Shown here: one piece after another, positions 27,301 to 30,300 of the stretch
Layout: each line of letters begins with the position of its first letter
How positions within the stretch are numbered: position 1 is the first letter of the stretch
Origin: the human T2T-CHM13v2.0 reference genome, Homo sapiens
DNA length: 64,000 nucleotides
Assembly: GCF_009914755.1 (NCBI RefSeq)
Contig: NC_060928.1
Reading direction: 5' to 3' (one strand)
Translations under genes and position numbers: made by a program
Notes under the pieces: model-generated
Database searches by the model: none
The model's input: the letters and a program-made list of their open reading frames with translations, nothing else
What the model was told of the DNA's origin: nothing

Positions 27301-30300
27301 TGCTGGGAGAACAAAGAGTAAAGCAAGAGTTTCTGACAGAGATAAGTACAAAGAATAACCCATTATTTAACATCTTAATTTTTTTAGTGAGCAAATTATT
27401 TTAAAATTCCTACATTTTGATTCTCAAATTAATTCCTATAAACCAAACTTTAAATGTACTGCTGGAAGTAGATATTCTCTGCCAACTCATGCTATGATGA
27501 GAAAATTGCAGACTAGTCCAATCAAAACATGTAAGTCACATTTTAGTAGTCTAAACAAAAGTAAACAAAGTCATTCTCAAACTAAATATCAGTTTTAACA
27601 ATTAAAACACTTTCCCAAATAAAGTCTCCATTCAGATGAAAAATAAAAACTAGAAAAACCTATCAACATTGTACAATATGTAACTCTAAAATCTGCATAT
27701 TTAAAACTTATAAATGTCATTTTAGGTTAAGTCTAAACAAAATTAAGAATTTATTTTTCCTCTGCTTTGCACAAATTATGAATTTTACATGATCATACAG
27801 AAAATTTGATACTTATTAAAAGCAACTTTACAGGAAAGTTTTTAAAATCTTAATAGTTAAAAAACTATTTCTTAATAATCCTTAGTAACATTTAGTTTTT
27901 CTTTCTACATCTAATGACATTTAAGAATTAAGGGAATTTTTTTTTTCCAGAGACAATGCCTTGTAATAAAATAGGCTTTTATAAATTGGCAAGTAATGGG
28001 TCAGAATTTTAACAGAGTTCATAAAACTAATTCAAAATATATTCTTTAGAAGGTGAAACTTTACTGACTACAGAGGGCTGTTCTTTACTGTCTTCCATAA
28101 ATCGGGTTAACTTAACACATCATTAAATACACTTCAATTTACTTAGCAGCTAATAAAGAGTTAAACAAAAAAAAAGTCCAAAATATTTAGAAAATAAATA
28201 TATCTTTTTAACCTTAATGTCAAATAAAAACTTGATAACAACCTAGCATTCACTAGTTTTCAGCTATTTGTCTGAGTACCAACTGCTTTCATTAACTTTT
28301 TCAACACAGTTCACTCAAACTGCAAAGTTAAGTGCAATAATCCCAAGCCCCCCAACAGAATAAAAACAGTTGCATCTACAATAAATAATACTAAGAAAAT
28401 TAAAAGCTGGTTTAAAAAATAAACATACCGCTTTCCTGTAGTTTGGGGAGTGCATTTACGACCGGTATAAAACATGATAGTAACAGTTCATATAGTAGTC
28501 CAACTACTGACTTTAAGCTGTAAGCCACATACATAAATGGAGGCCCTGGCAGGCTTGAGAGAAGGTGTAGTGGTGTAATAAGTATAGTTTGCAGTCCATT
28601 GCAAAACTGAGGTAAAAACTTCACTTGTATATATTGTATTGCACTGGAAACCTCTTAGCTTAAAACTTCAAAAGACATCTTGGTGCTCAGTCCTTTTAGG
28701 CCAAAAATAAGGGGCTCTGCCAGGTTTCCTCCTACCTACTCGACAGTGTCCTTTTTAAGCTCAAAGAAATGGGGACTCTTGTTGGATTATCTGTACCTAC
28801 CACAGGATGTCTCCACCAAAAGGAAATTTAATCAAAGGTTTCATCCCATCAACCATACATCCAATAGTCTTTAGCAGAATATTTTAGATTTAGCTGTATG
28901 CAAATCTACACAGGGGAAGGTGTTGGGTAGAAGGGCTTAAATCAGTCCTTTGCAAAGACTTCTCCAATTCTGTAACAAGTTAAACCCCCTTTTTCTGGAA
29001 AATGCTGTTTAGTTCATAAAGTAGTGATCAATAACCATGGCGATCCTCTAAAAAACACTTTTAAGTCCACAGGTACTGCCAGCATCTGGAAAAGTTGTAA
29101 ACAGACACAGCAACAGCCCTTCTTTTTGGTTTGTTGCCGGGTCTCCCAGGGCCACTTGATCCCCTTTGGAAAGAACCTATTGTTTTCAGAAGCTCAGCAA
29201 GATGTGTGAATTCACTGGGTACATGTTAGAGAATATTTGGCAATAGGGTTAACACATCACGGTGATAAAATCTGAAACAGTCCCAATAATGCTCCTCTTG
29301 AATATCAAAATAACTTAAAATATTTTATCCTCTAAATGAGGCGTCATCTTCTGAAAAAATATTAGTGATCCTTTATAAAAGTCCCATATCTGATAAGGCT
29401 TATCCAGAGACATACCTGAAAGAAAAGGCTTTTTAAAAAGTATTAACAATTTTTGCAAATAAAGACTTCCTCCTCTTCCTCCTTTCTAGCCTGTTCTTAG
29501 CAACAAATGCCTACCTCATTTCAATTGTATACATTGTATTATCAGAGTATTATCTAATCTAAACTGGTTATCACTGGTTATACTTTTTTCTGCATAAGGA
29601 AAGATCCCCATTTTCCTCTTGAAAAATGACTGAGACCAAGGTGACCATGTGAAATCCTCAATGAAGCCACAAACTAGTCCATGCAGCTTGATTTGAGGAT
29701 TTTCTCTTTCTTCTTTACCGCAGGACAAACTTTTGACGAATCATATTCCTCCATCATGTTATTCTGATACATGTGCCTATTATCAGTCCAAAGAACGTTT
29801 CTAACCTTCCCACATCCCGGACTGGTTCTCGACGGGATGGACGTCCTCGTGATCGGGGCTGAGAATGCATTCTTCTCTTGTGACGCATTTTATGAATGAC
29901 CTGATACAAGTCAATACTTTCATCGGGGGGAAACAGAAGACAAAGCTGGGTTCCACATTCAAGTTCAATTTCCTAGAATAGGAAAGTAGCAATTTATAAA
30001 ACAAAAACAGACCCTTTCAACAGACTTGCATTTTCCTGATGTACCAGAACAAAAACTGACTTGGAAGCTTTCTTCCCAAGGCTGATGATCATATGGGATT
30101 CCAATAAGACTTCCAGATTTATAAAACATTTAAAAAGTGTTTTGTGTATTTATATAAAGGGTAAAAACTAAAAGTGTAGAATCTCTGAAGTTAAATACAC
30201 AAATGCAGTTGCTTAAAATTCTGTGACAACCACCCTCTGAAAAGGGACTATTTCTTTGTGCAAAATAGAAAAATATCAGGACAAGGTCATTTAATACAAT

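What the first reader, a model, noticed from the sequence alone, without database searches (positions are those of the whole stretch)
28429..29805. Strand-specific GGACU cluster in intron 11 of the m6A reader's own gene: a candidate m6A-sensing autoregulatory cassette
Seen: nine GGACU pentamers on the transcribed minus strand in about 1.3 kb (plus-strand AGTCC at 28497, 28593, 28689, 28944, 29064, 29279, 29380, 29676, 29785), plus two more at 28175 and 27515. A given 5-mer is expected about once per kb, and I find only one GGACT on the opposite strand here (near 28773). I see no Alu or L1 in this intron. Read-through from exon 11 hits TGA at 29754-29756. Established: GGACU is the optimal METTL3 DRACH site and YTHDC1 binds GG(m6A)C on nascent RNA. 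I recall reports of m6A-dependent Ythdc1 intron-11 splicing, so this may be partly known. Inference: YTHDC1 reads marks on its own intron and diverts transcripts to retention or NMD, giving negative feedback tied to m6A level.
Basis: partly seen in the sequence, partly recalled or inferred. Interest (0 to 1): 0.8.

Follow-up and report, generated by a model that had tools for sequence, protein, structure and literature searches.

The report
Known m6A-sensing poison exon extension, YTHDC1

Summary
There are nine GGACU on the transcribed strand in 28429-29805. About 1.5 are expected, and 0 of 5000 dinucleotide shuffles reach 9. No 1377-nt window in 200 whole-window shuffles exceeds 7. The opposite strand has one.

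The stretch is not an arbitrary piece of intron. It runs from the normal exon-11 5' splice site (AAG|GTTAGA) to a downstream 5' splice site (GCG|GTATGT, 28429|28428). An in-frame TGA lies 49 nt in.

In mouse ES cells the same layout is published by Wei et al. 2021 (PMC8327914). The alternative 5' splice site lies 1358 nt downstream there, against 1377 nt here. Three m6A peaks lie inside the extension. Use of the minor junction falls from 20% to 0.07% after acute METTL3 loss, and YTHDC1 RNA and protein rise. Körtel et al. 2021 confirm the event by RT-PCR.

The mechanism is therefore already known. The human sequence supplies its cis-basis. I found no paper showing them.

Side observations are a co-enriched GAGGA motif and unusually even spacing of the sites.

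The parts
29806..29972 (-). Exon 11 of YTHDC1 (167 nt), ending in codon phase 2.
   Evidence: Hub annotation. The frame was verified by in-silico splicing. Mouse exon 11 is also 167 nt, inferred from the transcript blocks together with the junction.
29800..29808 (-). Normal (upstream) 5' splice site, AAG|GTTAGA, with the last exon base at 29806.
   Evidence: It matches 7 of 9 consensus positions, with U at +3 and A at +6. That is mid-range for this gene, where the sites score 5 to 9.
28429..29805 (-). Alternative exon-11 extension ('poisonous' intron/exon part), 1377 nt. GC is 38% here and 27% in the rest of the intron. It carries the GGACU array.
   Evidence: The mouse counterpart is 1358 nt (LeafCutter junctions) and has three m6A peaks inside it.
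29785..29789 (-). GGACU 1. The A is at 29787, intron position 19.
29676..29680 (-). GGACU 2. The A is at 29678, intron position 128.
   Evidence: It falls within the offset range of mouse peak 1 (70-230).
29380..29384 (-). GGACU 3. The A is at 29382, intron position 424.
29279..29283 (-). GGACU 4. The A is at 29281, intron position 525.
29064..29068 (-). GGACU 5. The A is at 29066, intron position 740.
28944..28948 (-). GGACU 6. The A is at 28946, intron position 860.
   Evidence: It falls within the offset range of mouse peak 2 (782-1032).
28689..28693 (-). GGACU 7. The A is at 28691, intron position 1115.
   Evidence: It falls within the offset range of mouse peak 3 (1114-1328).
28593..28597 (-). 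GGACU 8. The A is at 28595, intron position 1211.
   Evidence: It falls within the offset range of mouse peak 3.
28497..28501 (-). GGACU 9. The A is at 28499, intron position 1307, 70 nt upstream of the downstream 5' splice site.
   Evidence: It falls within the offset range of mouse peak 3.
29754..29756 (-). In-frame premature TGA, 49 nt into the extension and 1325 nt upstream of the downstream splice junction.
   Evidence: The predicted product is 550 aa, against 727 aa for the full protein.
28423..28431 (-). Downstream alternative 5' splice site, GCG|GTATGT, with the last exon base at 28429.
   Evidence: 6 of 9 consensus positions. It lies 1377 nt from the upstream site, against 1358 nt in mouse. 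The GGACU density and GC content both drop just downstream of it.
27263..28428 (-). Remainder of intron 11. It is removed in both splice forms, is AT-rich, and holds 2 GGACU in 1166 nt.
27180..27262 (-). Exon 12, the shared acceptor for both 5' splice sites.
   Evidence: Hub annotation. The mouse exonic RT-PCR primer matches 27181-27201 at 21 of 21 positions.
29636..29657 (+). Site matched by the published mouse intron-11 'IR' RT-PCR primer. It is a local sign of mouse-human conservation inside the extension.
   Evidence: The primer comes from PMC8450095. It matches the human window at 21 of 22 positions, uniquely.

Best explanation
The 1377-nt stretch is the human counterpart of the m6A-dependent 'poisonous' extension of exon 11 described for mouse Ythdc1.

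Proposed mechanism:
1. The pre-mRNA can be spliced at the normal 5' splice site (29806|29805), which gives productive mRNA. Alternatively it can be spliced 1377 nt further on at GCG|GUAUGU (28429|28428), or left partly unspliced.
2. The stretch between the two sites carries nine copies of GGACU, the best METTL3 substrate motif, on the RNA strand only.
3. METTL3-METTL14 methylates them co-transcriptionally.
4. The marks reduce use of the upstream site and favour treating the extension as exon. This is probably through YTHDC1 and associated SR proteins.
5. The extended form meets a TGA 49 nt in, with a splice junction 1325 nt further downstream. It therefore cannot give full-length protein and should be degraded or kept in the nucleus.

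Shown here from the sequence: the motif cluster, its strand specificity, the two splice-site motifs, the stop codon, and the match of the layout to mouse.

Shown in print, in mouse only: methylation, METTL3 dependence of the minor form, and the rise of YTHDC1.

For: Sequence evidence:
- There are 9 GGACU against 1.5 expected, and 0 of 5000 shuffles reach 9. The cluster is unique in the 64-kb window.
- The enrichment is strand-specific: 9 sense against 1 antisense, with 0.94 antisense expected.
- 9 of the 10 GGAC in the stretch are GGACU.
- 11 of the gene's 33 GGACU lie in intron 11.
- The extension is bounded by 5' splice-site motifs, has an in-frame TGA at 29756-29754, and contains no ORF longer than 32 aa.
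- GC content and GGACU density both fall at 28429.

Mouse evidence, PMC8327914:
- Junction chr5:86828121-86830554 goes from PSI 0.796 to 0.999, and chr5:86829479-86830554 from 0.204 to 0.0007, on METTL3 degradation (cluster adjusted p 1e-6).
- This gives a 1358-nt extension, against 1377 nt in human.
- The m6A peaks lie at offsets 70-230, 782-1032 and 1114-1328. Five of the nine human motifs fall in those offset ranges.
- Ythdc1 RNA log2 fold change is 0.63, adjusted p 0.016. The text reports a rise in protein and calls the alternative part 'poisonous'.

Other papers:
- PMC8450095 reports that intron-11 retention falls in Mettl3 knockout cells, by RT-PCR.
- Its mouse intronic primer matches human at 21 of 22 positions.
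- PMC12618237 reports that the METTL3 inhibitor STM2457 raises YTHDC1 protein in mouse ES cells.
Against: - No human methylation, CLIP or splicing data could be examined, and no human-specific paper was found.
- RefSeq lists no transcript with the extended exon (hub table).
- Conservation of the individual motifs could not be tested, because no mouse sequence was available beyond three primers.
- The upstream 5' splice site is not unusually weak by a simple consensus count (7 of 9; the gene's range is 5-9).
- Predicted local accessibility of the nine motifs is not above background (P = 0.86).
- Wei et al. themselves say that direct causation in cis 'warrants further investigation'.
- YTHDC1 dependence of this particular event is not stated in any text I read.
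Confidence: 0.8

Rival explanations
1. The element senses writer activity only. m6A near the upstream 5' splice site acts directly, for example by hindering U1 snRNP. Alternatively it acts through another m6A-sensitive protein, such as an hnRNP 'm6A switch'. YTHDC1 protein takes no part, so there is no reader-level loop.
For: Wei et al. phrase the effect as m6A repressing the nearby 5' splice site. One GGACU has its A only 19 nt from the upstream site. The same laboratory found another m6A effect, Xist turnover, to be independent of YTHDC1. No text I read shows YTHDC1 dependence of Ythdc1 intron 11.
Against: Wei et al. state that m6A-bearing A5SS events in general phenocopy the Ythdc1 conditional knockout. 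YTHDC1 degradation reproduces the METTL3 effect at the sister event Tor1aip2. An array of nine sites spread over 1.3 kb is more than is needed to affect one splice site. It fits multivalent reader binding better, though this is inference.
Confidence: 0.25
2. The marks do not choose the splice site. The long extension is methylated simply because it is a long stretch free of splice junctions. The marks then control the fate of the extended transcript, such as nuclear decay, retention or condensate formation.
For: Wei et al. leave open that such parts are unstable or retained on chromatin, and that the non-productive transcript may act in cis or in trans. m6A-dependent nuclear RNA condensation of a retained-intron transcript is reported for FUS (PMC12285722; only the search listing and the start of the abstract were seen).
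Against: Wei et al. argue that m6A-driven destabilisation would make the minor form rise on m6A loss, not vanish. The minor junction falls from 20% to 0.07% within an acute depletion.
Confidence: 0.1
3. The cluster is a chance or compositional effect, or a DNA-level element such as a set of protein-binding sites, with no function in the RNA.
For: The motif is not enriched in the window overall. The region is richer in G+C than its surroundings. DRACH as a class is not enriched.
Against: 0 of 5000 composition-matched shuffles reach 9, and 0 of 200 whole-window shuffles do. The excess is on the transcribed strand only. The orthologous mouse stretch carries METTL3-dependent m6A peaks.
Confidence: 0.02

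Closest known systems
Mouse Ythdc1 exon 11 / intron 11 m6A-dependent alternative 5' splice site (Wei et al. 2021, Genome Res, PMC8327914; Körtel et al. 2021, NAR, PMC8450095)
   Same: It is the same gene and the same intron. Exon 11 is 167 nt in both species. The downstream 5' splice site lies 1358 nt (mouse) or 1377 nt (human) from the upstream one. The mouse m6A peaks lie at offsets where human GGACU motifs sit. The outcome is non-productive in both.
   Different: All the experiments are in mouse ES cells. The human motif array, its statistics and the position of its stop codon are described here from sequence only. The human transcript form is not in RefSeq (hub table).
Sister events in m6A-pathway genes: Wtap intron 6 (alternative last exon), Spen intron 2 (alternative 5' splice site) and Tor1aip2 (Wei et al. 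2021)
   Same: m6A next to a 5' splice site favours inclusion of an intron-derived part. The proposed result is self-regulation of the m6A machinery.
   Different: They are different genes and in part a different event type (alternative last exon with a poly(A) site).
Poison-exon autoregulation of SR proteins (Lareau et al. 2007, as cited by Wei et al.; the paper itself was not read)
   Same: An RNA-binding regulator limits its own level by unproductive splicing that introduces a premature stop.
   Different: Those are short cassette exons with their own 3' and 5' splice sites, and the protein binds its motif directly. Here the poison part is a 1.4-kb exon extension made through an alternative 5' splice site, and the signal is an RNA modification written by another enzyme.
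Drosophila Sxl intronic m6A read by the YTHDC1 homologue (Haussmann 2016 and Lence 2016, as cited by Wei et al.; the papers themselves were not read)
   Same: Intronic m6A near an alternative splice site controls splicing through the nuclear YTH reader.
MAT2A detained intron controlled by METTL16 (PMC5871880 introduction; listings)
   Same: A methylation-dependent intron-retention switch gives homeostasis of the methylation system.
   Different: It uses a different writer and a structured UACAGAGAA hairpin motif (motif recalled). There is no exact copy of that motif on the transcribed strand of intron 11. The one near-match is TACAGATAA at 28787-28795.

Membership tests
m6A-dependent unproductive splicing of m6A-machinery genes (Ythdc1 intron 11 type, Wei et al. 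2021) | An intron-derived alternative part directly downstream of a 5' splice site, ended by a downstream 5' splice site | tested here: met
   AAG|GTTAGA lies at 29806|29805 and GCG|GTATGT at 28429|28428. The spacing is 1377 nt, against 1358 nt for the mouse junction pair.
m6A-dependent unproductive splicing of m6A-machinery genes (Ythdc1 intron 11 type, Wei et al. 2021) | METTL3 consensus motifs concentrated in the alternative part on the RNA strand | tested here: met
   There are 9 GGACU against 1.5 expected, and 0 of 5000 shuffles reach 9. The antisense strand has 1.
m6A-dependent unproductive splicing of m6A-machinery genes (Ythdc1 intron 11 type, Wei et al. 2021) | The alternative part is 'poisonous', meaning it carries a premature stop and no coding extension | tested here: met
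   TGA at 29756-29754 is in frame, giving a 550-aa product against 727 aa. The next junction is 1325 nt downstream. The longest ORF inside the part is 32 aa.
m6A-dependent unproductive splicing of m6A-machinery genes (Ythdc1 intron 11 type, Wei et al. 2021) | Orthology and conservation of the element between mouse and human | tested here: inconclusive
   Exon size is the same and the extension length is nearly the same. The mouse intronic primer matches at 21 of 22 positions. No mouse sequence was available for a full alignment, so conservation of the individual motifs is unknown.
m6A-dependent unproductive splicing of m6A-machinery genes (Ythdc1 intron 11 type, Wei et al. 2021) | The part is actually m6A-methylated in cells | not testable with these tools
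   This is shown for mouse: peaks at chr5:86828191-86828351, 86828903-86829153 and 86829235-86829449. No human data were within reach.
m6A-dependent unproductive splicing of m6A-machinery genes (Ythdc1 intron 11 type, Wei et al. 2021) | Use of the alternative form depends on METTL3 activity, and protein output rises when m6A is lost | not testable with these tools
   This is shown for mouse. It was not found in print for human.
Reader autoregulation (YTHDC1 binding its own pre-mRNA) | YTHDC1 binds the methylated extension and is required for the splice choice | not testable with these tools
   Only a general statement is available: A5SS events phenocopy the Ythdc1 knockout. Nothing I read is specific to this intron.
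SR-protein-type poison cassette exon | A discrete cassette exon with its own 3' splice site | tested here: not met
   The event is an exon extension through an alternative 5' splice site. The mouse LeafCutter cluster holds only two junctions, and they share the acceptor.
METTL16 / MAT2A-type switch | UACAGAGAA motif (recalled) on the RNA strand | tested here: not met
   There is no exact match on the minus strand within 27263-29805. One 1-mismatch hit lies at 28787-28795.

The most novel reading that the evidence does not exclude
The array may be more than a patch of methylation sites. It could be a graded, multivalent counter of nuclear m6A.

- The nine optimal sites are spaced never closer than 96 nt (P about 6e-4 for random placement; the test was chosen after seeing the data).
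- Weaker DRACH motifs are fewer than composition predicts (20 against 31.9).
- A second strand-specific motif is co-enriched, the purine-rich GAGGA (10 against 1.9 expected).

On this reading, YTHDC1 molecules bound along the array cooperate with SR proteins on the GAGGA elements. Together they convert 1.4 kb of intron into exon in proportion to site occupancy. That would close a true reader-level feedback loop in human cells.
Probability: 0.2. Interest if true: 0.5.

Novelty: already known. Interest (0 to 1): 0.25.

Why it matters
The switch sets how much nuclear m6A reader a cell makes relative to how much m6A it writes. It therefore buffers the whole nuclear m6A pathway.

By inference, it predicts that METTL3 inhibitors will raise YTHDC1. 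That has been seen in mouse ES cells with STM2457. It also predicts that the ratio of the two exon-11 junctions could report target engagement.

The human sequence gives nine defined positions to mutate. This makes two open questions directly testable:
- whether the marks cause the splice choice in cis, which Wei et al. call unresolved;
- whether YTHDC1 itself reads them.

The principle itself is not new.

Tried and rejected
- **Repeats as the source of the motifs.** Tandem Repeats Finder gave only three short arrays of 18-19 nt (periods 9-10). Direct and inverted repeat families do not carry the motifs. The exact 96-nt spacing of three sites is not a repeat unit.
- **Known structured RNA.** There were 0 Rfam matches at E up to 1 in 27000-30100.
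- **General DRACH enrichment.** There is none (29 against 33.4).
- **Accessibility of the motifs.** Local folding gave a mean unpaired probability of 0.090 for the motifs and 0.148 for the region (P = 0.86).
- **Pairing of GAGGA with GGACU sites.** Not significant (P 0.10-0.13).
- **Coding potential of the extension.** The longest ATG ORF is 32 aa.
- **METTL16-type motif.** Absent.
- **GGACU-free coding exons.** Exons 2-16 have 0 in 1931 nt, but this is not significant (P = 0.20).
- **Weakness of the upstream 5' splice site.** A simple consensus count puts it mid-range. No MaxEnt-type scorer was available.
- **CAG|GTATGT at 29416|29415.** It scores 8 of 9 and follows a pyrimidine tract, but no junction there appears in the mouse cluster.
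- **Körtel et al. supplement.** The text held (4,315 characters) has no site table. PDFs and the large supplementary PDF of Wei et al. could not be read, so supplementary figures S8, S10, S11 and S13-S15 were not seen.
- **Pfam scan of the spliced protein.** That the 550-aa product keeps the YTH domain therefore rests on recall, not on a result here.
- **Human-specific literature.** The searches gave only mouse primary data and reviews that repeat it. A 2026 YTHDC1 review does not contain the word 'autoregulat'.
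Full report
**1. The observation**

These are GGACU on the transcribed minus strand. The two further copies at 28175 and 27515 are also there. One opposite-strand copy lies at 28773.

The count is 9 in 1377 nt, or 6.5 per kb. The gene as a whole has 33 in 39,717 nt, or 0.83 per kb.

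Several controls show this is beyond chance:
- Dinucleotide-preserving shuffles of the region give a mean of 1.50 and a maximum of 7. None of 5000 reaches 9.
- The boundaries were chosen around the cluster, so I also ran a scan statistic. The densest 1377-nt window holds 9 on the transcribed strand and 4 on the other strand. In 200 shuffles of the whole window the densest cluster held 3 to 7, never 9.
- Among all 1024 5-mers on the RNA strand, only GGACT (9 against 1.47) and GAGGA (10 against 1.86) survive Bonferroni correction. In 1 of 300 shuffles some 5-mer was as extreme.

Results that limit the claim:
- The motif is not enriched in the window overall (92 matches, 92.0 expected).
- DRACH as a class is not enriched in the region (29 against 33.4).
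- The excess is specific to the optimal form. Nine of the ten GGAC are GGACU. DRACH motifs other than GGACU are fewer than in shuffles (20 against 31.9; 5 of 3000 shuffles are as low). Their density per kb is still no lower than in neighbouring introns.

The read-through stop is as stated. The CDS through exon 11 ends in phase 2, and the first in-frame stop is TGA at 29756-29754.

**2. What the stretch is**

- Its upper end is the normal 5' splice site of exon 11, AAG|GTTAGA at 29806|29805.
- Its lower end is a second 5' splice-site motif, GCG|GTATGT at 28429|28428. T-rich sequence follows it.
- GC content is 38% within the interval and 27% in the remaining 1166 nt of the intron.
- GGACU density falls from 6.5 to 1.7 per kb at the same boundary.
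- The interval has no ORF longer than 32 aa, no repeat family that explains the motifs and no Rfam match.
- Eleven of the gene's 33 GGACU are in intron 11. The mature mRNA of 6233 nt holds four.

**3. What is in print**

Wei et al. 2021 (Genome Res, PMC8327914) studied nascent RNA of mouse ES cells. I read passages, the whole Discussion and passages of the supplementary tables.
- They show m6A peaks in Ythdc1 intron 11 close to the 5' splice site.
- They class the event as an alternative 5' splice site.
- The minor form makes up about 20-30% in wild type and drops to nearly 0 on acute or stable METTL3 loss.
- They report higher Ythdc1 transcript and protein after acute depletion.
- They call the m6A-bearing alternative parts 'poisonous' and compare the loop with SR-protein unproductive splicing.

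Their LeafCutter table gives the two junctions:
- chr5:86828121-86830554 goes from PSI 0.796 to 0.999.
- chr5:86829479-86830554 goes from PSI 0.204 to 0.0007.
- The cluster's adjusted p is 1e-6.

The downstream site is therefore 1358 nt from the upstream one in mouse, against 1377 nt in human. The rest of the intron is 1075 nt in mouse and 1166 nt in human.

Their peak list places three m6A peaks at offsets 70-230, 782-1032 and 1114-1328 from the upstream site. All are inside the extension. If the two sequences are roughly collinear, five of the nine human motifs (offsets 128, 860, 1115, 1211 and 1307) fall in these ranges. The other four (19, 424, 525 and 740) do not.

A differential-expression table lists Ythdc1 at log2 fold change 0.63, adjusted p 0.016.

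Körtel et al. 2021 (NAR, PMC8450095, passages) report reduced retention of Ythdc1 intron 11 in Mettl3 knockout ES cells, validated by three-primer RT-PCR. Their primers match the human window as follows:
- The mouse intronic primer matches uniquely at 29636-29657, at 21 of 22 positions.
- The two exonic primers match exons 11 and 12 perfectly.

A later paper from the Wei et al. laboratory (PMC12618237, passages) adds two points:
- The catalytic METTL3 inhibitor STM2457 raises YTHDC1 and WTAP protein in mouse ES cells.
- YTHDC1 degradation reproduces the METTL3 effect at Tor1aip2.
- It does not mention Ythdc1 intron 11.

**4. Mechanism**

The best-supported account is the published one, transferred to human.
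1. Co-transcriptional methylation of the extension lowers use of the upstream 5' splice site.
2. This favours the downstream site or partial retention.
3. The extended transcript carries a stop 49 nt into the extension and a splice junction 1325 nt beyond it. By the established 50-55-nt rule this makes it a candidate for nonsense-mediated decay, unless it stays in the nucleus.
4. Output of full-length YTHDC1 falls when m6A is high and rises when it is low.

From the sequence I can show the motif array, the two splice sites, the stop and the correspondence with mouse.

I cannot show that the nine motifs are methylated in human cells. I cannot show that human splicing responds to METTL3. They also state that causation in cis needs further work.

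Two rivals follow from this:
- **A writer-only sensor without YTHDC1 (0.25).** See the Rival explanations section for the evidence on each side.
- **Marks that govern transcript fate, not splice choice (0.1).** Wei et al. argue against this one, because loss of a destabilising mark would raise the minor form, not abolish it.

**5. Checks that gave nothing**

- Predicted local accessibility of the motifs is not above background.
- The upstream 5' splice site is mid-range for the gene by a consensus count.
- GAGGA elements are not significantly close to GGACU sites.
- No METTL16-type motif is present.
- The absence of GGACU from coding exons 2-16 is not significant.
- Which domains the 550-aa product would keep was not computed here. 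That it retains the YTH domain and loses the C-terminal arginine-rich and proline-rich part is partly visible in the translation. The domain boundaries rest on recall.

**6. Novelty and verdict**

The principle, the gene and the intron have been in print since 2020-2021, and reviews repeat it.

- the statistics of the human motif array;
- its exact fit to the interval between the two 5' splice sites;
- the near-identical geometry in mouse;
- two unexplained regularities, namely the even spacing of the sites and the strand-specific co-enrichment of GAGGA.

My searches found no human-specific experiment and no direct test of YTHDC1 on its own intron. A 2026 review of YTHDC1 does not discuss autoregulation. 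Subscription-only papers and unreadable supplementary PDFs may hold such data.

Noticed in passing
window 28429-29805, minus strand; GAGGA 5' ends at 29751, 29659, 29618, 29481, 29475, 29472, 29332, 29297, 29048, 28731: A second 5-mer, the purine-rich GAGGA, is as enriched as GGACU on the RNA strand. There are 10 against 1.86 expected, and 0 of 3000 shuffles reach 10. The antisense strand has 1. The density is 7.3 per kb here and 1.46 per kb gene-wide. It looks like a set of exonic splicing enhancers, but which protein binds them is unknown. The elements are not significantly close to the GGACU sites.
   Followed up: partly
window 28497-29789, minus strand: The nine GGACU are unusually evenly spread. 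The gaps are 109, 296, 101, 215, 120, 255, 96 and 96 nt, never under 96 nt. For nine random points P is about 6e-4, but the test was chosen after seeing the data. The last three sites are exactly 96 nt apart, with no underlying repeat.
   Followed up: partly
window 29405-29430, minus strand (boundary 29416|29415): The sequence ccttttctttCAG|GTATGT is a 3' splice-site-like pyrimidine tract and AG abutting a strong 5' splice-site motif (8 of 9 consensus positions). It resembles a recursive splice site and lies 390 nt into the extension. No junction at the corresponding place is in the mouse LeafCutter cluster.
   Followed up: partly
window 28429-29805, minus strand: DRACH motifs other than GGACU are fewer than composition predicts (20 against 31.9; 5 of 3000 shuffles are as low). 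Nine of the ten GGAC are followed by U. The stretch seems to hold few weak sites and many optimal ones.
   Followed up: partly
window 17442-57158, minus strand (YTHDC1 exons): Coding exons 2-16 contain no GGACU (0 in 1931 nt). The whole 6233-nt mRNA has four. Taken alone this is not significant (P = 0.20).
   Followed up: yes
whole window, both strands: One-mismatch matches to TACAGAGAA are more frequent than in shuffles (41 against 23.7; 0 of 100 shuffles reach 41). This is probably an effect of A-rich low-complexity sequence. It was not examined further.
   Followed up: no
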